Virus record (IMG/VR): IMGVR_UViG_3300022752_000059
Span: 2,601-66,600 of that record
Reading direction: 5' to 3' (one strand)
Origin: a virus
DNA: 64,000 nt
Numbering within the stretch: position 1 is the first letter of the stretch; the number at the start of each line of letters is the position of its first letter. Below the pieces are notes generated by a model, which did no database searches, was not told the origin of the DNA, and was given only the letters and a program-made list of their open reading frames with translations. The translations under genes and the position numbers were made by a program. Positions 23,844 through 64,000 of this stretch are shown here, in pieces.

Positions 23844-24480
23844 CGAGGTCCTTCAATCTGTAGTCGGAACCTTTAACGCCGATGAGATAGCACGACGCTT
23901 TGATGATGGATGCAGTCCTTGGTGAGAAGATGCTCGACAACTTATCGGGGATGATTGACGTCGTGATGATCGTCGGCAGTTTCATTTCCCACCGTGACTC
24001 AATCAAGTCCGCCGTGGTGTTTGCCATGTAATCCGTCAACCTGTCGTTGTTGAGGTTGTCAATGACAACCACGTCAAGAACACGGCGTGTGTATTTCAAA
24101 AGATTTGGATCTCCGTACATCTCTGGTAATAAGCCGTCGGAATTTCGAGCATCGTGGACCATCTCGGTATAGATGTCGTAGTTCAAGAACAGTCCGCTGC
24201 ACTGGTTCTTTGTGACGACTTCACGAAGAGCGGACACGGAGATATGTGTTTTCCCTAGTCCAGTGGGACCATAGATGTACAGACCCATGCCCTCTGACTG
24301 TTGCTCTTCAAACGTCGAGCACCATTTCCTAACCGCTTTTTGTAGGTCGTGCGGTCCGACTGTATCGGACTCAAACGAATCGAACGTGCAGTTTCTGTAG
24401 CGGGGAGGAATCCGTAAATTACGAATACGCTCATCCGTTGGTCGACTACGCCAATATTTGGGACTATGCCATTCGCTCAC
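23830..24480 (-). CDS. DnaC/IstB-like helicase-loader ATPase
   Basis: IP.RY...TF.SF, GLYIYGPTGLGKT, VVIDNL, R....LPTIITT, G.DYR. Confidence 0.88.
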   Translation of the reverse strand: MSEWHSPKYWRSRPTDERIRNLRIPPRYRNCTFDSFESDTVGPHDLQKAVRKWCSTFEEQQSEGMGLYIYGPTGLGKTHISVSALREVVTKNQCSGLFLNYDIYTEMVHDARNSDGLLPEMYGDPNLLKYTRRVLDVVVIDNLNNDRLTDYMANTTADLIESRWEMKLPTIITTSIIPDKLSSIFSPRTASIIKASCYLIGVKGSDYRLKDLDGEG

Positions 24481-24587
24481 GATTACTCCTCGTTACGCAT
24501 GAATGATTCAAAAAGATGTCAACCTTAAAAAAGGTTATGCCACACGAAACACAGTTGACGCCGAGTGCGCCACTTTTCTTTTTGTTC

Positions 24588-24980
24588 TCAGTCTTCTCGG
24601 AGGAGACGTCGGTCGGTCGTTGTTTCACTGGTTGAATCCTCGCTGGTGCCATTATCGATCTGGTTTGCCAACTTGTCAAGGTTCGCAATGAACCCTCGCC
24701 AAGGTGCCACGTCCATCGGCAACGGTCTCCGTGAAATCTCCTGCATGTATTGCAGAATCATTTGTCGGATGTCGTCGTCGGTATAACCGTGGGCGACGAG
24801 TGTAGCAAAGCACTTCATCAACGCCTTGCCATTCGTAGAAGAATTCAAACGGAGGGCGTAATCGGCGGGGACGCTGTCACGGAAGAAGTTGACGAGGGCG
24901 AGACGGTAACCCTTCTTCGGGGCTGGCGACTTTGGTCGGTCGGGGTCTTCTCCCAAACCTCTGCCCCAATCGTCGTTCAC
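24588..24980 (-). CDS. Hypothetical protein (possible stand-alone C-terminal half of the initiator)
   Basis: GTGA overlap with the initiator; lies between initiator and DnaC. Confidence 0.55.
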   Translation of the reverse strand: MNDDWGRGLGEDPDRPKSPAPKKGYRLALVNFFRDSVPADYALRLNSSTNGKALMKCFATLVAHGYTDDDIRQMILQYMQEISRRPLPMDVAPWRGFIANLDKLANQIDNGTSEDSTSETTTDRRLLRED

Positions 24981-25432
24981 AAAAGTCTCCTGTCGACTTT
25001 GGTGGGTCCCTTCTTGTTCTTTTTATTCTCTCTTGTTTGGGTGACACCCGTGTCACCCCCAGTAGTGACACCCGTGTCACCACGGAGTGACACCCGTGTC
25101 ACCGTTTCGAGGGGTGACTGGTGTGTCACCGTTTCTGGATTATTGAAATTTATGTAGTACTGGTTGGTCATACTGCGCCCGCCTTTATTGCGATGTGTGC
25201 GTTCAAGAAGTCCAATCTCCTCCAGTTTGTTCACCGATCGAATGACCGACCTACGGGAGCGCTGCATCTGCTCAGCGATGTGCTGGTACGACGTTGTGAG
25301 GCGCTGAGTTTTGGCGTCCATGTACTGCAAAAGATAAAGCGCTACCGCCAAGGAAACCTCGTCTTTTACGAGGTATGGAAGCACCCATCGGGGCAAGGGT
25401 AGGAAGGGACCGCTCAAGGTATTGCGACTCAT
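24977..25432 (-). CDS. Winged-HTH replication initiator
   Basis: LPRW...YL...SYQHIAEQM..SRRSV.R.V..LE..GLL...N.Y; contains iterons; RBS AGGAG. Confidence 0.8.
   Translation of the reverse strand: MSRNTLSGPFLPLPRWVLPYLVKDEVSLAVALYLLQYMDAKTQRLTTSYQHIAEQMQRSRRSVIRSVNKLEEIGLLERTHRNKGGRSMTNQYYINFNNPETVTHQSPLETVTRVSLRGDTGVTTGGDTGVTQTRENKKNKKGPTKVDRRLL
25040..25130. repeat. Iterons / putative replication origin
   Basis: GTGACAC-CC-GTGTCAC palindromes at 25041, 25065, 25087 and a degenerate copy at 25114, next to an AT-rich tract. Confidence 0.85.
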
Positions 25433-25450
25433 GGTTGCTCCTGTTGTTCG

Positions 25451-25481
25451 TTGACGGCTGGTGGAGAAGGCATGCTACACT
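25451..25481 (+). promoter_or_regulatory. SigA-type promoter with extended -10
   Basis: TTGACG-N19-TACACT with TGc before the -10. Confidence 0.6.
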
Positions 25482-25487
25482 ATCGAT

Positions 25488-25595
25488 TGCTCCGACATTG
25501 CAATTTTAATGGTTGGTTGTCTGTCGGGCACTGTGCAGTTCGGCTGGGGGAGGCTTTTCCACCTCCTCGGAACCTCCTGGTCTCCCCCAGCCACC
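25488..25595 (+). ncRNA. Candidate structured small RNA or leader displaying two anti-SD (CCUCCU) motifs
   Basis: Stem 1: 25488-25497 with 25522-25530; stem 2: GGCTGGGGGAG 25542-25552 with CTCCCCCAGCC 25582-25592; loop holds CACCTCCT and AACCTCCT. Confidence 0.5.
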
Positions 25596-25636
25596 TGTAA
25601 TCATCTATGCTTGTTACGCACGATAGGAGGCCCGCT

Positions 25637-25795
25637 GTGGCATCAAAAAAGAAGCAAAAAAAAGTTGAGAAGGTCATGGGCGAATACAAGCGTGGAACGC
25701 TTAAGTCGTCGTCTGGAGACAAGGTCAAGTCAAAGAAGCAGGCTGTCGCCATTGCGATGAGCGAAGCAGGCATGAGCAAGAAAAAGAAGAAGTAA
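25637..25795 (+). CDS. Small basic protein (DUF6496-like)
   Basis: KVEKVMGEYKRGTLKSSSG.KV.S.KQAVAIAMSEA; RBS AGGAGG, GTG start. Confidence 0.8.
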   Translation: MASKKKQKKVEKVMGEYKRGTLKSSSGDKVKSKKQAVAIAMSEAGMSKKKKK

Positions 25796-25953
25796 TGCCG
25801 AAGAAAGTTTGGAACACTAAAAATCCGAACAAGAAGTCAACCAAGTTGACTCCTGAACAAAAGTCGGAAGCAAAGGCACGTGCGAAAGCCGCTGGTCGTC
25901 CTTATCCCAACTTGGTCGACAACATGGCGGTGTCTAAAAAAGGCAAGCGCTAA
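25795..25953 (+). CDS. Small basic protein (52 aa)
   Basis: MPKKVW...KLTPEQK..AKARAKAAGRPYPNLVDNM; TAATG coupling on both sides; not in the ORF track. Confidence 0.75.
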   Translation: MPKKVWNTKNPNKKSTKLTPEQKSEAKARAKAAGRPYPNLVDNMAVSKKGKR

Positions 25954-26231
25954 TGGCTAAGAAATCGGCAGCGTGGCAGCGCAAAGAGGGTAAGAACGAA
26001 AAAGGTGGGCTCAACGAGAGGGGACGCAAGTCCTACGAGCGTGAGAACCCTGGTTCAGACCTCAAGCCGCCCGTGAAGAAAGAACAGGCAGCAAAGTCTG
26101 AGAAATCCGCTGCTCGTCGCAAGTCGTTCTGCGCCCGTATGGAAGGCATGAAGAAAAAGAACACTTCAGCCAAGACCGCTCGTGACCCGAACAGTCGTAT
26201 CAACAAGTCTCTTCGTGCGTGGGATTGCTGA
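25953..26231 (+). CDS. Basic protein (DUF6321-like)
   Basis: AWQRKEGKN.KGGLN..GR.SY...LK.PV...RRKSFCARM...SRINKSLRAWDC. Confidence 0.8.
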   Translation: MAKKSAAWQRKEGKNEKGGLNERGRKSYERENPGSDLKPPVKKEQAAKSEKSAARRKSFCARMEGMKKKNTSAKTARDPNSRINKSLRAWDC

Positions 26232-26665
26232 TGAAAAAACTTGCCACGTCCCTCAAGACGGTTTTGTCTGATGTGGTAACCATGTATTTTGCCGCACAGG
26301 GTTATCACTGGAATGTCGAAGGCGAAGACTTTTATCAGTACCACGGACTGTTTGCCGAGATTTACGAGGACGTCTACTCCAGCATTGACCCGATTGCAGA
26401 GAACATCCGCAAGTTGGACGAGTACGCCCCATTTAGTTTGAAAACGTTCCTAGACCTTCGTACGATCGAAACTAAGGAAGTTAAGCCCGAACCCAAAGCA
26501 ATGGCAAAAGCATTGATGACACTGAACGAGGGCGTCATCAAGTCCTTGGACAAAGCGTTCAAAGACGCCACCTCAGCAGACGAGCAGGGCATTGCTAACT
26601 TCATTGCAGGTCGTATCGACCAGCATCAGAAGTGGGCTTGGCAGTTGAGGGCTTCTACGAAGTAA
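26231..26665 (+). CDS. dps: Dps family ferritin-like DNA protection protein
   Basis: YHWNVEG..F..YH.LF..IY......D.IAE.IR...H.K..WQL. Confidence 0.92.
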   Translation: MKKLATSLKTVLSDVVTMYFAAQGYHWNVEGEDFYQYHGLFAEIYEDVYSSIDPIAENIRKLDEYAPFSLKTFLDLRTIETKEVKPEPKAMAKALMTLNEGVIKSLDKAFKDATSADEQGIANFIAGRIDQHQKWAWQLRASTK

Positions 26666-27344
26666 AGCCAAATACCTCGGCAACTTTGTGCTCGGGTGCT
26701 TGACCCGTAACTACACGTCCATCGGAAAACACTACGACCACTGTGCAGTTAGTGCCCGTGCTTGAGACGATTTTGAACGTACCAAGGTCCACTGGCGCCT
26801 GTATTTCTTCCTTTGGCTTTTCTTCCTGTTCGGCATTGCCCAAAAGGATTGCCTCGGCAAGTGCCGACTTCGTGGTCAGTTTCTTGGTGTAGTTACCGTG
26901 CTCATTTGCGAGTGCCTTGAGTTTGGACAGTGGCATTGCTACAAGTTCTTCGTAGGTCAGTTCCGCAAACTTTTTAGTGGGTTCATCTTTTACCGATGGT
27001 TCCACTCCCTCAACGACGATGGGTGTCAAACCGTTTGACACATCCAATACCTTGACACCGTTATCAACGGCATTGATTACGTACTTGTTCATCAACTCGG
27101 GTTTGTCCTCGTCCCACATCAAAAGAAGGGTGCCATTTTCTTTGGCAAGTATTTCCATCACTTCGGTGGTCGCTACAAACTGAGCCTCTGGGGAAAGGGC
27201 TTCAAGCCACGTCTTGATCGTTTCGTTACCAATGAGTTTGTCCGAAATGTAGACGACGTCGTTGTCTCGATAGACGTCGGACAACGAGTCATAAATGACC
27301 TTGTCACTGACGTGTTTGTCGGAACCAATAAGTCCGTACTTCAT
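26655..27344 (-). CDS. Hypothetical protein with a SAP/Rho-N-like helical motif
   Basis: EELVAMPLSKLKALA..HG.....TKSALAEAIL; RBS AGGAG. Confidence 0.6.
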   Translation of the reverse strand: MKYGLIGSDKHVSDKVIYDSLSDVYRDNDVVYISDKLIGNETIKTWLEALSPEAQFVATTEVMEILAKENGTLLLMWDEDKPELMNKYVINAVDNGVKVLDVSNGLTPIVVEGVEPSVKDEPTKKFAELTYEELVAMPLSKLKALANEHGNYTKKLTTKSALAEAILLGNAEQEEKPKEEIQAPVDLGTFKIVSSTGTNCTVVVVFSDGRVVTGQAPEHKVAEVFGFTS

Positions 27345-27354
27345 GTTGTTCTCC

Positions 27355-27612
27355 TCACTGTTTGGCTATGCGGCCCAGGGCCATGTCTCCTAACAGCGTA
27401 GCGAGGCGGAGTACGGAATGGCAACCACTGGCGATTGAGGCAATAGTCAAGCCAGCAATTACAGGGTCTTCCACTTTAGTGACAAATGCGGCAGCGTATC
27501 CAAAGATGATTCCGACGAGAACTTTAACCCACGGCATCGCTTCCCGTGGAGAAAGTGCGTCTAACATTTGCACTGCTTTATATACAGCCAAACCAGCGAG
27601 AAAATAAGTCAT
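27355..27612 (-). CDS. Small membrane protein
   Basis: Three hydrophobic segments; ATGA overlap. Confidence 0.6.
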   Translation of the reverse strand: MTYFLAGLAVYKAVQMLDALSPREAMPWVKVLVGIIFGYAAAFVTKVEDPVIAGLTIASIASGCHSVLRLATLLGDMALGRIAKQ

Positions 27613-61898: not shown

Positions 61899-63455
61899 TC
61901 ATGCTCTTGCCACCGTCAAAGAACCCGTAGTAGTCCACGAGTACCAAGTGTAAGAACCGTCTGTGCCGTTTGTCGTAGTTCCTGTGACGCTAATGCTTAG
62001 ACCTGTTGCGTCTGCGGTAAGCCAACGCACAATGACAATGCCTGAACCGCCGTTATTGTTCTGACCGCCGCCATTACCTGTGTTAGCGCCACCTGCGCCG
62101 CCGCTTTCCGAACCGCCCGTTGCGTATGTAGTTGCTGAACCGTTGTAGTTGTTGCTCGACCCTGCGCCGCCTGTCGTACCGCTTGCGTCACCACCTGCGC
62201 CACCACCTGCGCCAGCGTTCGCATTATTTACGCCGATACTGCCTTTGTTGCCTTGCCCCAACACGCCGAAACCGCCCGAACCCGCACCGACAAAACTTCC
62301 GCCACCTGAACCGCCCTGTTTGCCAATAGCACTACCGCCGCTTTGTGATGCGCCACCGCCACCACCATAAGCGGTACGAATAAAGAGAGAGTTGCTACCG
62401 TCACCGCCAGCCGCACCGCCAGCCGCACCACCACCGCCAACAGTCACCGTGTGCGTTGCTTTGCCAATGATGTTGCTCGCAACTATCATTCCGCCAGCGC
62501 CACCACCGCAACCGTCATTGCCGCCAGCACCGTAGCCGCCAGCACCGCCGCCAGCAACGACCAGATAATCAACATTTAATACTTCCTGATATCTAACATT
62601 TCCTACAGCAGAACCTGAGACTCTTCTACGGATATAGACGATTCCTGCACCGCCTGAACCGCCATCATTGTTTACGCCGCCGCCACCGCCGCCTCCAGTA
62701 TTAGCAGTTCCGTTATTTTGACCACGGTTTGCACCGCCACCAGAACCACCCGTGCCACCGCTTGCACCGCCGCCTCCACCGCCTCCTGAACGGTATGTTG
62801 TTCCTGCGGATTGTCCAAGCCAAGTTGAAATGTCTACTCCAATCCCACCATTTCCTCCAGCCGTTCCAGCGGCATTGCTGCCAATTGCACCTGCTCCACC
62901 ACCGCCACCGCCACCATTATTGTCTGATGCGACTCCAGTACCTCCTGCAAATCCTTGCATTCCCAGTCCACCAGTTACATAGTTGCTATTTCCTGTTCCT
63001 GAACCTCCACCACCACACCCGCCGTTATGTGCAACAAAACGGTCACCACCAGCAGTCCAACCTGCCCCTTGCCCACCGCCAACTCCAACGATGTCGGTAC
63101 TTGACCACGAAGACCCACCTATGCGAGATGAACCGCCACCTGCGCCCATTCTCCCTGTCCCCCCACCGCCAATAGTTACGGTTTGATTGGAATTTAAATA
63201 AACAGTTTCCTGAATTATGCCGCCACCGCCACCACCACCGCCGTATGATGTTCCTGGTGCATATCCACCCTGCCCGCCTCCGCCAACAACAAGCACGTCA
63301 AACCAGCCAGGTTTTGTAACCGTCAACGTACCTGTTGCCGTAAATGTATGAAGTTTATATGAAACACCAGAGACGGTTATATCTGTTTCTGTACCGCCCG
63401 ATGCAACACCGTATTCGGTTGCAAGTCGAGGAGATCGGGCTGCTGAGATACTCAT
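61899..63455 (-). CDS. Glycine-rich fibre/adhesin protein with two Gly-rich domains
   Basis: H.FTATG, VLVVGGGG.G, YLVVAGGG.G, ANTG.GG, GGSGIVIVR. Confidence 0.75.
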   Translation of the reverse strand: MSISAARSPRLATEYGVASGGTETDITVSGVSYKLHTFTATGTLTVTKPGWFDVLVVGGGGQGGYAPGTSYGGGGGGGGIIQETVYLNSNQTVTIGGGGTGRMGAGGGSSRIGGSSWSSTDIVGVGGGQGAGWTAGGDRFVAHNGGCGGGGSGTGNSNYVTGGLGMQGFAGGTGVASDNNGGGGGGGAGAIGSNAAGTAGGNGGIGVDISTWLGQSAGTTYRSGGGGGGGASGGTGGSGGGANRGQNNGTANTGGGGGGGVNNDGGSGGAGIVYIRRRVSGSAVGNVRYQEVLNVDYLVVAGGGAGGYGAGGNDGCGGGAGGMIVASNIIGKATHTVTVGGGGAAGGAAGGDGSNSLFIRTAYGGGGGASQSGGSAIGKQGGSGGGSFVGAGSGGFGVLGQGNKGSIGVNNANAGAGGGAGGDASGTTGGAGSSNNYNGSATTYATGGSESGGAGGANTGNGGGQNNNGGSGIVIVRWLTADATGLSISVTGTTTNGTDGSYTWYSWTTTGSLTVARA

Positions 63456-63676
63456 TGTGGAACCTCAGGTGCTACGAACACATCATTCACCGCATCGTAG
63501 GTATCACCGATGCCAGCGTACTTGCCACGCTGAGAGTTGTCTTGAAATGTTTCTACCCAAAGCGATGCGTCACCATAACGCTCAGGGTTTGCCACGATGA
63601 AGTCATACGCAACAACACGAACATCGGTGACGATGCCGTTCTCAACCTTTGCGAAGTAGGTGCGTGTGTCGCTCAT
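63452..63676 (-). CDS. Fibre-partner protein, MAHFA family (copy 3)
   Basis: YFAKVENG.V..V.VV...W.ET....RGKYAGIGD.YDAVNDVF. Confidence 0.7.
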   Translation of the reverse strand: MSDTRTYFAKVENGIVTDVRVVAYDFIVANPERYGDASLWVETFQDNSQRGKYAGIGDTYDAVNDVFVAPEVPQ

Positions 63677-64000
63677 ATCTTGAACCTTACGAATACTGCG
63701 CCAGCCGCACCGTTGCCGCCCGTGTTCATTCCACCACGACCACCGCCACCACCTGCGCCGTAGTTAACACCATTATCGCCGTTGGCAGATGAACCTTTGC
63801 CTGCCACGCCACCGTTGCCAGCCGAGCCACCAGTACCGCTTGCAGAGCCACCACCACCTGCTGATGCATAATAGATTGCGCCCGTAATCCAACTAGAGAT
63901 GTCAGCACCGTTGCCGCCAGAGCCGCCAACAGATGACGTACCGTTGCCGCCTGCACTACCAGCACCACCGCCACCACCAGCGCCTGTCCCAGATGAGTTA
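63673..64000 (-). CDS. Glycine-rich fibre protein (5' part outside the window)
   Basis: ...GGGGGAG...DISSWITG...GGGG...GNGAAGAVFVRFKI*; ATGA overlap. Confidence 0.7.
   Translation of the reverse strand, partial: NSSGTGAGGGGGAGSAGGNGTSSVGGSGGNGADISSWITGAIYYASAGGGGSASGTGGSAGNGGVAGKGSSANGDNGVNYGAGGGGGRGGMNTGGNGAAGAVFVRFKI

What the first reader, a model, noticed from the sequence alone, without database searches (positions are those of the whole stretch)
25451..25640. Candidate phage small RNA displaying two anti-Shine-Dalgarno motifs
Seen: a promoter TTGACG-N19-TGcTACACT (25451-25481) predicts a start near 25488, exactly where a 9-bp stem begins (25488-97 with 25522-30). A second stem of 11-14 bp (25542-55 with 25579-92) encloses TTTCCACCTCCTCGGAACCTCCT. 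This holds two CCUCCU copies, one in an apical loop closed by UUCC/GGAA and one unpaired beside it. A separate possible -10 (TATGCT, 25606) could serve the downstream genes. Known: CACCUCCU is the 16S rRNA anti-SD tail, and C/U-rich loop sRNAs (alphaproteobacterial cuckoo RNAs, actinobacterial 6C RNA) pair with RBSs. Inference: either (a) a trans-acting 16S-tail mimic that silences SD-led mRNAs (host or late phage) while the phage's leaderless mRNAs escape, or (b) a cis switch sequestering the AGGAGG at 25625-25630.
Basis: partly seen in the sequence, partly recalled or inferred. Interest (0 to 1): 0.78.

Follow-up and report, generated by a model that had tools for sequence, protein, structure and literature searches.

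The report
Phage small RNA beside replication initiator
Next to its DNA-replication initiator gene this uncultured phage carries a small, folded, non-coding RNA gene whose open loop copies the ribosome-binding tail of 16S rRNA; related phages keep the same kind of RNA, so it probably controls translation, though no transcript has been seen.

Summary
At 25473-25600 there is an extended -10 promoter (TGCTACACT) followed by two hairpins. The second hairpin has a 14-bp stem and an open loop with two CCUCCU boxes. The 113-nt RNA folds far better than shuffles (z -4.5, 0 of 200).

I fetched 55 distinct loci that encode homologues of the neighbouring lambda-O-like initiator. In 47 of them a structured element follows a promoter at the same place. 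The stems covary: 6 compensatory pairs in one architecture and 11 in another. G-U pairs place the RNA on the + strand. The loop CCUCCUUUC, which matches the 16S 3' tail, is present in 31 of 31 loci of two architectures (a count that is partly circular). In 17 loci no + strand gene follows the RNA, so it is a stand-alone RNA and not a leader.

The + strand extended -10 is present wherever the RNA is (45 of 48) and absent where it is missing (0 of 8). Rfam has no match.

The most likely function is a base-pairing RNA that blocks Shine-Dalgarno sites, with the initiator mRNA as prime suspect. This fits well in relatives but is not significant in this window. A global 16S-mimic role and a cis switch remain untested; the cis switch cannot be the conserved role. 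No RNA data exist.

The scan has found this kind of RNA before on other DNA (e1-6022481, e1-6221688, e1-5921865).

The parts
25451..25456 (+). -35-like hexamer TTGACG, 19 bases before the -10 hexamer
   Evidence: Read. TTGAC(T) at the same 19-base spacing is seen in L008, L031 and L067. Its function is not tested.
25473..25481 (+). Extended -10 promoter of the RNA (TGcTACACT)
   Evidence: Read. TGnTAnA(C/A)T sits at the homologous place in 14/14 group A, 17/17 group C and 13/16 group B loci. It is present in 0/8 loci that lack the RNA.
25472..25477 (-). Candidate -10 (TAGCAT) of the initiator's own promoter, overlapping the RNA's -10 back to back
   Evidence: A TANNNT is present on this strand in 14/14 A, 16/16 B, 7/8 short loci and the window. 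It is present in 0/17 group C loci, where the initiator follows an upstream gene on the same strand. This is an inference; no TSS data exist.
25488..25531 (+). Hairpin 1 of the RNA (outer stem 25488-25497 / 25522-25530, inner 6-bp stem, loop with AAUGGUU)
   Evidence: -15.6 kcal/mol, z -3.09, 2 of 200 shuffles as good.
25534..25600 (+). Hairpin 2: outer 5-bp stem, 14-bp stem 25542-25555 / 25579-25592, 23-nt loop
   Evidence: -36.2 kcal/mol, z -5.00, 0 of 200. Perfect 11-nt inverted repeat. Best hit in the whole window of a covariance model built only from group C relatives: 25513-25607, 16.2 bits, E 0.066.
25562..25567 (+). First CCUCCU box (within CCACCUCCUC), unpaired in the apical loop
   Evidence: CACCUCCU equals part of the published 16S 3' tail GAUCACCUCCUUUCU (PMC6288834, Table 1).
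25573..25578 (+). Second CCUCCU box (AACCUCCUGG), unpaired
25455..25466 (+). Third copy of the hairpin-2 arm sequence (CGGCTGGTGGAG), lying in the promoter spacer
   Evidence: CGGCTGGNGGAG occurs at 25455 (+), 25541 (+) and 25582 (-). There are 10 matches in the window at up to 1 mismatch against 0.78 expected. Its meaning is unknown.
24977..25432 (-). Replication initiator gene (winged-helix, lambda-O-like), divergent neighbour of the RNA
   Evidence: PHROG replication initiation families, best E 2.5e-14. PF13730. 35-39% identity to the N-terminal part of lambdoid O proteins.
25038..25135 (.). Four tandem iteron-like repeats inside the initiator gene (probable origin)
   Evidence: Four copies of a 25-mer with core GTGACACCCGTGTCAC, spaced 24, 22 and 27 bases.
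25625..25795 (+). SD AGGAGG and DUF6496 gene (GTG 25637), first gene of the + strand island downstream of the RNA
   Evidence: PF20106, E 2e-10. SD and start codon read.

Best explanation
What it is: 25473-25600 is a stand-alone small-RNA gene. An extended -10 promoter sits back to back with the initiator's own -10 and starts a transcript of about 113 nt at about 25488. The transcript folds into two hairpins. The loop of the second hairpin exposes two CCUCCU boxes.

Family: it is one member of a varied family of RNAs that uncultured actinophage-like phages keep directly beside a lambda-O-like replication initiator gene.

How it most likely works: by base pairing. The exposed C/U-rich boxes bind Shine-Dalgarno regions and keep ribosomes off. 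The prime candidate target is the initiator mRNA made from the opposite strand a few bases away. The RNA would then throttle replication initiation, much as plasmid counter-transcripts and the P1 c4 RNA act. Other SD-led mRNAs are possible targets.

Shown here: a conserved promoter, covarying stems, the strand, and conserved loop boxes.

Inferred: that the RNA is made, where it ends, what it pairs with, and the effect.
For: 1. Structure in the window: z -4.54, 0/200.

2. Homologous loci. 66 loci were fetched through the initiator: 10 are duplicates, 1 is truncated, 55 are distinct. 47 of the 55 have a structured element at the same place.

3. Group C (17 loci): 20 predicted pairs, 6 with compensatory changes. 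95.1% of cells are paired against 88.8% in shuffles (0/500). Covariation score is 0.270 against 0.142 (0/500). Slid controls give 38-60% paired.

4. Group A (14 loci): 35 pairs, 11 compensatory.

5. Strand. One pair is G-U in 11 of 15 distinct group C rows, and several group A pairs are G-U in 2-4 rows. These would be A-C mismatches on the other strand. The window's hairpin 2 also folds better on +.

6. The loop CCUCCUUUC is present in 14/14 group A and 17/17 group C loci although the stems differ.

7. Stand-alone gene. In group C a gene on the initiator's strand ends 5 nt from the hairpin and no + gene follows. That gene is homologous to window 26655-27344.

8. The promoter tracks the RNA: + extended -10 in 45/48 loci with the RNA and 0/8 without.

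9. Pairing with the initiator's ribosome site. In 14/14 group A loci the 9-mer CCTGAGGAG occurs only twice, as the complement of the RNA's open box and at the initiator's RBS. The cognate site ranks in the top 5% of all sites in 9/9 A, 6/12 C and 5/11 B loci tested.

10. The origin-like iterons lie inside the initiator gene, so the intergenic hairpins need not be the origin.
Against: - No transcript evidence: no RNA run was listed.
- In this window, complementarity between the RNA and the initiator's start region is ordinary: 23% of all sites in the window pair as well. Only short matches exist (CUCCUG/CAGGAG, UUGCUCC/GGAGCAA, AUGGUUG/CAACCAU).
- The same direct repeats could be DNA sites for a protein. 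My test for wobble-compatible differences was weak: 14 compatible transitions, 4 incompatible, 29 transversions.
- Group B loci hold CCTCC in only 9 of 16, and it is unpaired in only 3. An anti-SD box is therefore not universal in the family.
- The link between the window and its relatives rests on synteny, the promoter and a weak model hit (16.2 bits, E 0.066). A spurious hit elsewhere in the window scored 15.5 bits.
- The closest relatives (initiators 71-97% identical) could not be fetched, so conservation of the double CCUCCU loop itself is untested.
- Hairpin 2 has no U-tail in the window, so the 3' end is uncertain.
- The groups were sorted by eye, partly on the loop motif, so '31 of 31' is partly circular.
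Confidence: 0.5

Rival explanations
1. Global 16S-tail mimic. The RNA is made in large amounts and its loop, a copy of the 16S 3' tail, soaks up strong SD sequences (mainly host mRNAs). Alternatively it soaks up a factor that recognises the 16S tail. Either way translation is reprogrammed in favour of weak-SD or leaderless phage mRNAs.
For: - The loop matches the 16S tail beyond the CCUCC core. CACCUCCUUUCU is seen in L017, L044, L048 and L056, and CCUCCUUUC in 31/31 group A and C loci. The published tail is GAUCACCUCCUUUCU (PMC6288834, Table 1).
- Its perfect complement AAGGAGG is used by almost no gene near the RNA in relatives. Across the 23 loci examined there was 1 occurrence that is not the RNA's own complement.
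- Relatives place -10 boxes a few bases before ATGs, a leaderless-type arrangement.
Against: - No sign that the window avoids AGGAGG (24 found, 21 expected) or GGAGGT (28 found, 26.8 expected).
- Roughly half of the window's own genes have 4-6-nt SD matches, structural genes included.
- Stoichiometry against a cell's mRNAs is demanding.
- Group B often lacks the box.
- The host and its 16S tail are unknown.
Confidence: 0.12
2. Cis-acting leader. Transcripts from the promoter read through hairpin 2 into the DUF6496-Dps genes, and the CCUCCU boxes pair with the AGGAGG at 25625-25630 to gate translation of the first gene.
For: - There is no U-tail after hairpin 2, so read-through is plausible.
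- CCUCCUGG can pair with UAGGAGG (7 pairs, read).
- The downstream gene in this window is SD-led, unlike in most relatives.
Against: - The RNA is kept in 17 loci with no downstream + gene.
- In groups A and B the next gene mostly lacks an SD.
- Group B hairpins are followed by U-rich tails typical of terminators.
- In the minimum-energy fold the SD is not paired with the boxes. Such a pseudoknot-like contact cannot be predicted by that tool.
Confidence: 0.12
3. pO/oop-like promoter effect. What matters is transcription from this promoter next to the initiator and its internal origin, through competition with the overlapping initiator promoter or interference with incoming transcription. The RNA is mainly a stable by-product.
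For: - The topology matches lambda. pO lies by the O gene, points away from it, makes the short oop RNA, and its activity tunes replication by interference with pR transcription (PMC3985674, passages).
- The initiator is O-like and has iterons inside the gene.
- The two -10 boxes overlap.
Against: A by-product would not need unchanging loop boxes over covarying stems in two different architectures.
Confidence: 0.12
4. DNA-level element. The repeats and the inverted repeat are operators or origin sites bound by the initiator or a repressor, not an RNA.
For: - CGGCTGGNGGAG occurs three times in 140 bp, including inside the promoter spacer.
- Direct repeats link the initiator-proximal region and the distal region in all groups.
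Against: - G-U pairs on one strand only, and compensatory changes.
- The loop is conserved while the stems change.
- Arms 29 bp apart are unusual for a dimer site.
- Clear tandem iterons lie elsewhere, inside the gene.
Confidence: 0.05

Closest known systems
oop RNA and promoter pO of phage lambda
   Same: A short RNA whose promoter lies at the start of an O-type initiator gene and points away from it. The origin lies inside the initiator gene. In group C relatives the RNA runs up to the end of the gene upstream of the initiator, as oop runs into cII (PMC3985674 passages).
   Different: There is no detectable sequence or structure relation. In the window no gene on the initiator's strand lies under the RNA, so it cannot be a cII-type antisense. 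oop is not known for anti-SD loops (recalled).
Anti-SD-loop sRNAs of Rhizobiales (SmelA075/SmelA099; 'cuckoo' is a name I recall)
   Same: Several hairpins with variable stems whose loops carry a fixed anti-SD motif (PMC3927594, passages).
   Different: Their motif is CCUCCUCCC, here it is CCUCCU(UUC). They are chromosomal and alphaproteobacterial. No Rfam family of this kind matched.
Plasmid counter-transcripts that block rep translation (e.g. RNAII of pMV158)
   Same: A small hairpin RNA encoded beside the initiator gene that inhibits its translation by pairing near the start signals (PMC4485353, abstract).
   Different: Those RNAs overlap the rep mRNA as true antisense. Here the two promoters appear to be back to back, so pairing would rely on short trans complementarity.
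c4 antisense RNA of phages P1/P7
   Same: A phage RNA that acts through short complementary boxes on a ribosome-binding region it does not overlap. This is recalled, and it was named by earlier finding e1-6022481.
   Different: No Rfam match of any kind. Different host group and gene context.
6C RNA of Actinobacteria
   Same: C-rich loops on two hairpins in an actinobacterial setting (recalled; also named in e1-5921865).
   Different: No hit to any Rfam family above E 0.019, and that hit was sucC on the other strand. The loops here are CCUCCU, not C-runs.

Membership tests
Any Rfam 15 family (including 6C, C4, ctRNAs, alpha-r14/15) | Score at or above the family's gathering threshold | tested here: not met
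   0 matches in the window at gathering. At E up to 10 in 25400-25700 the best is sucC, 21.6 bits against 50, on the minus strand. 0 matches at E up to 1 in 6 related loci.
Initiator-adjacent actinophage RNA (family defined here; also earlier scan findings) | Extended -10 promoter next to, and pointing away from, a homologous initiator gene | tested here: met
   TGCTACACT at 25473-25481. The same element is present in 44 of 47 related loci with the RNA.
Initiator-adjacent actinophage RNA (family defined here; also earlier scan findings) | Hairpin with covarying stem and CCUCC-containing open loop, detectable by a model built from relatives | tested here: inconclusive
   The model from group C puts its best window hit exactly here, but at 16.2 bits, E 0.066. 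A spurious hit scored 15.5 bits.
lambda oop RNA | Antisense overlap with the 3' end of the gene upstream of the initiator | tested here: not met
   In the window the + strand island lies downstream of the RNA. In L014 the upstream gene stops 5 nt before the hairpin.
lambda oop RNA | Promoter at the start of an O-like initiator gene, directed away from it, with the origin inside the gene | tested here: met
   The promoter is inferred from sequence only.
Plasmid-type counter-transcript | Transcribed from the strand opposite the rep mRNA leader and overlapping it | tested here: inconclusive
   The initiator's candidate -10 (TAGCAT) would start its mRNA outside the RNA gene. No TSS data are available. 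In group C an incoming transcript would overlap the RNA.
Intrinsic terminator only | G+C-rich hairpin followed by a U-run; loop of no particular sequence | tested here: not met
   No terminator was called at 25542-25592. The tail is ACCUGUAAUCAUC. The loop motif is kept in 31/31 group A and C loci.
Anti-SD-loop sRNAs of Rhizobiales | Three or four hairpins, each with loop CCUCCUCCC | tested here: not met
   There are two boxes in one loop, with sequence CCUCCU. The motif definition is from PMC3927594.

The most novel reading that the evidence does not exclude
The phage makes a decoy of the 16S rRNA 3' tail. In one version the hairpin-displayed CACCUCCU(UUCU) titrates strong Shine-Dalgarno sequences across the cell, giving host shut-off that spares weak-SD and leaderless phage messages. 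In the other it draws off a factor that attacks or binds the ribosome's anti-SD tail, for example an anti-SD-cleaving toxin of an abortive-infection system (that such toxins exist in actinobacteria is recalled, not checked here).
Probability: 0.12. Interest if true: 0.9.

Novelty: new variant of a known kind. Interest (0 to 1): 0.6.

Why it matters
Small RNAs of phages of Actinobacteria are almost unknown, and none is in Rfam for this locus type. This is a comparative case, with promoter, strand, covariation and fixed loop boxes, for an RNA tied to the replication initiator across dozens of uncultured freshwater phages. It occurs in at least three architectures.

If the boxes act on ribosome-binding sites, it is an RNA-based throttle of phage replication, analogous to plasmid copy control. 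If the 16S-tail likeness is the point, it would be a viral mimic of the ribosome's mRNA-recognition element.

Both readings are directly testable with reporters. The family also gives a ready alignment for a new RNA model.

Tried and rejected
- Expression: the look-up of sequencing runs (rna) on 24000-27400 listed no RNA holder.
- Close relatives:
  - A single-protein scan of viral contigs found none.
  - The exact 20-mer of the loop gave 0.
  - The hairpin-2 arms with a free loop gave 0.
  - Isolated phages match only the DUF6321 gene, not the intergenic region (49 records).
  - Genome contigs gave 0 relatives of the initiator.
- Ungapped repeat and wobble-direction test for RNA-RNA pairing against DNA sites: weak and not decisive.
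- RNAduplex of whole RNAs against start regions gave long, loop-ridden duplexes that I did not use.
- Search for a shared extended ribosome-site box in the window matching the loop: only generic SD matches.
- Avoidance of the target motif in the window: none.
- GGTTGGTTG as a genome-wide iteron: 35 matches with 1 mismatch against 22 expected, scattered, not informative.
- A crude gene and SD survey used my own greedy ORF choice and is only indicative.
- Literature searches for a prior description found none: 'anti-Shine-Dalgarno / small RNA / phage-encoded', 'anti-Shine-Dalgarno / mimic / sRNA / CCUCC', 'actinophage / small RNA / antisense / replication initiator'. I looked at listings only, apart from the papers cited. 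Supplements were closed and were not consulted.
- For alignment A1 I used 19 of the 22 homologues, leaving out P0016, P0017 and P0020.
- For some searches I used 33 representative loci out of 56 (the 55 distinct loci plus the window).

Full report
**Setting**

The window is part of a 66.6-kb viral metagenome record. Nearly all genes run on the minus strand.

- The region 25433-25636 lies between two genes. On the minus strand is a 151-aa winged-helix protein (24977-25432). On the + strand is a short island.
- The 151-aa protein matches phage replication-initiation families (best E 2.5e-14; PF13730). Its N-terminal part is 35-39% identical to lambdoid O proteins.
- The island holds DUF6496 (GTG 25637), phrog_34011, DUF6321 and a ferritin/Dps-like protein.
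- DnaC-like and DnaB-like genes follow the initiator.
- The portal protein is 52-54% identical to those of Streptomyces phages. An actinobacterial host is therefore likely but not shown.

**The observation**

- The RNA predicted from the promoter, 25488-25600, folds into two hairpins at -51.8 kcal/mol, z -4.54, with no shuffle of 200 as stable.
- Hairpin 2 alone gives z -5.00 on the + strand and -3.14 on the minus strand.
- The 14-bp stem encloses a loop with two unpaired CCUCCU boxes.
- The longer stretch up to the next gene is unremarkable (z -1.94).
- In my scan no other CCTCC-in-loop hairpin in the window has a stem above 10 bp.

**Relatives**

Isolated phages and exact-word searches gave nothing for the intergenic DNA. 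I therefore went through the initiator protein.

- It has 22 homologues at E up to 0.001.
- An alignment of 19 of them (A1) retrieved 19 loci from viral contigs and 47 from metagenome contigs. It retrieved none from 185,579 species genomes.
- After removing 10 duplicates and 1 truncated locus, 55 distinct upstream regions remain.
- I sorted them by eye into four classes:
  - A: 14 loci, an RNA of about 135-150 nt.
  - B: 16 loci, two hairpins with a U-rich tail.
  - C: 17 loci, about 85 nt.
  - Short: 8 loci, no structured element.

**Structure and strand**

- Group C: RNAalifold predicts 20 pairs, 6 with compensatory changes.
- On the trimmed group C alignment, 95.1% of cells pair against 88.8% in shuffles (0/500). 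The covariation score is 0.270 against 0.142 (0/500). Slid controls reach only 38-60%.
- Group A: 35 pairs, 11 compensatory. They include a 14-bp long-range helix and an inner hairpin.
- One group C pair is G-U in 11 of 15 distinct rows, and several group A pairs are G-U in 2-4 rows. On the other strand these would be A-C mismatches. The folded strand is therefore the one that reads away from the initiator, the + strand of the window.
- The loop of the main hairpin carries CCUCCUUUC in all 31 group A and C loci, although the stems differ. Group A has a second fixed open box, ACCUCCUCAGG.
- Because I used this motif when sorting, the count of 31 of 31 is partly circular. In group B only 9 of 16 hold CCTCC, and it is unpaired in 3.
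- Four group C loci read CACCUCCUUUCU. That is 12 letters of the 16S 3' tail GAUCACCUCCUUUCU reported for several bacteria (PMC6288834, Table 1; no actinobacterium was determined there).

**Link to the window**

- A covariance model built from group C alone places its best hit in the 64-kb window at 25513-25607 on the + strand. The hit aligns the stem and UUUUCCACCUCCU.
- The score is only 16.2 bits, E 0.066. A structurally broken hit elsewhere scores 15.5.
- Homology therefore rests on this hit plus synteny and the shared promoter.
- The window looks like a mixture. Its 5' hairpin resembles group B (CAAYY/GGUUG stem) and its 3' hairpin resembles group C.

**A gene of its own**

- In group C a 225-aa gene on the initiator's strand ends 5 nt from the hairpin, and no + strand gene follows.
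- That gene is homologous to window 26655-27344 (31% identity, E 1e-13). It is also homologous to the gene beyond the island in L003 (E 7e-19).
- The + island is therefore an insertion between the RNA and that gene. The RNA stays with the initiator whatever lies downstream. This excludes a leader or cis switch as the conserved role.

**Promoters**

- The + strand TGnTAnA(C/A)T is present in 14/14 A, 17/17 C, 13/16 B and the window. It is present in 0/8 loci that lack the RNA.
- Where the island separates the initiator from upstream genes, the opposite strand reads TANNNT over the same bases (A 14/14, B 16/16, short 7/8, window). In group C, where the initiator can be co-transcribed, it never does (0/17).
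- I read this as two back-to-back, overlapping -10 boxes: one for the RNA and one for the initiator.

**Not the origin**

The initiator gene itself contains four tandem 25-mers with a palindromic core, spaced 22-27 bp, at 25038-25135. This is the lambda arrangement of iterons inside O.

**Function**

- In each architecture an open segment of the RNA repeats, in direct orientation, the sequence complementary to the initiator's ribosome-binding region:
  - CTCCTCAGG in group A.
  - TCCTTGTCC in the loop of hairpin 1 in group C.
  - GGTTG(G/A)TTGCT in group B.
- In 14/14 group A loci the 9-mer CCTGAGGAG occurs only as the RNA's complement and at the initiator's RBS.
- Ranked against all sites of each locus, the initiator's start region is in the top 5% in 9/9 A, 6/12 C and 5/11 B loci. 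In the window it is ordinary: 23% of sites are as good.
- The 16S-like loop has no obvious local target. AAGGAGG occurs near the RNA only as its own complement in the 23 loci examined, with 1 exception.
- The window shows no avoidance of AGGAGG or GGAGGT. About half of its genes are SD-led.
- My best reading is therefore an SD-blocking, base-pairing RNA aimed first at the initiator mRNA, at about even odds.
- The rivals follow. They are a global 16S-tail mimic, a cis leader in this particular window, a pO-like promoter effect as described for lambda (PMC3985674), and DNA operator sites.

**Comparison with the known**

- No Rfam family matches.
- By position the closest analogue is lambda oop/pO. 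By motif it is the anti-SD-loop sRNAs of Rhizobiales (PMC3927594). By proposed action it is plasmid counter-transcripts such as pMV158 RNAII (PMC4485353 abstract) and the P1 c4 RNA (recalled).
- It is a member of none of these.
- Three literature searches found no description of it.
- Earlier agents of this scan reported what appears to be the same or a sister RNA in other phage contigs (e1-6022481, e1-6221688, e1-5921865). Those are unchecked notes, not independent evidence. My group A results agree with them. The claim that a block of small genes shares the box was not seen within 3 kb of the initiator.

**Verdict**

This is a real, conserved, structured RNA gene of a new family. Its mechanism is inferred and no expression data exist. 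I class it as a new variant of a known kind, interest 0.6.

Noticed in passing
window 25038-25135: Four tandem iteron-like 25-mers with palindromic core GTGACACCCGTGTCAC, spaced 24, 22 and 27 bp, inside the initiator gene. They fall where the protein has its GDTGVT repeats. This is probably the replication origin, as in lambda O.
   Followed up: partly
window 25472-25481 and homologous sites in L002-L067: Two overlapping -10 boxes on opposite strands (TAGCAT / TACACT). The minus-strand box is present only where the initiator is cut off from upstream genes (38 of 39 such loci including the window, against 0 of 17 group C loci).
   Followed up: yes
window 25637-26665: The + strand island DUF6496 / phrog_34011 / DUF6321 / Dps-like is an insertion relative to group C relatives. 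The DUF6321 gene is about 67% identical at DNA level to genes of marine cyanophages (P-SSM4, S-CAM1 and others).
   Followed up: partly
L008, L010, L012, L013, L020, L003 and others (upstream regions): The conserved small basic protein gene (phrog_34011 homologue, MASKKEVWDKPNPKKK...) usually starts 5-7 bases after a TAAAAT/TAAACT box with no SD. This is a leaderless-type arrangement. In the window its homologue is translationally coupled behind DUF6496 instead.
   Followed up: no
window 25455-25466, 25541-25552, 25582-25593: Three copies of CGGCTGGNGGAG within 140 bp. One lies in the spacer of the RNA's promoter and two form the stem of hairpin 2. There are ten matches in the window (up to 1 mismatch) against 0.78 expected; several others lie at 62402-63707.
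   Followed up: no
window 24923-24941 and 24990-25008: A 19-nt direct repeat (CTGGCGACTTTGGTCGGTC, 89% identical copy) spans the junction of the initiator gene and the next gene.
   Followed up: no
L064/L065 upstream region: In these group B relatives the terminator loop reads UUCCCCCUUUCG, a C-run in place of CCUCC. It is followed by a clear U-rich tail (UUUCGUUUUG).
   Followed up: no
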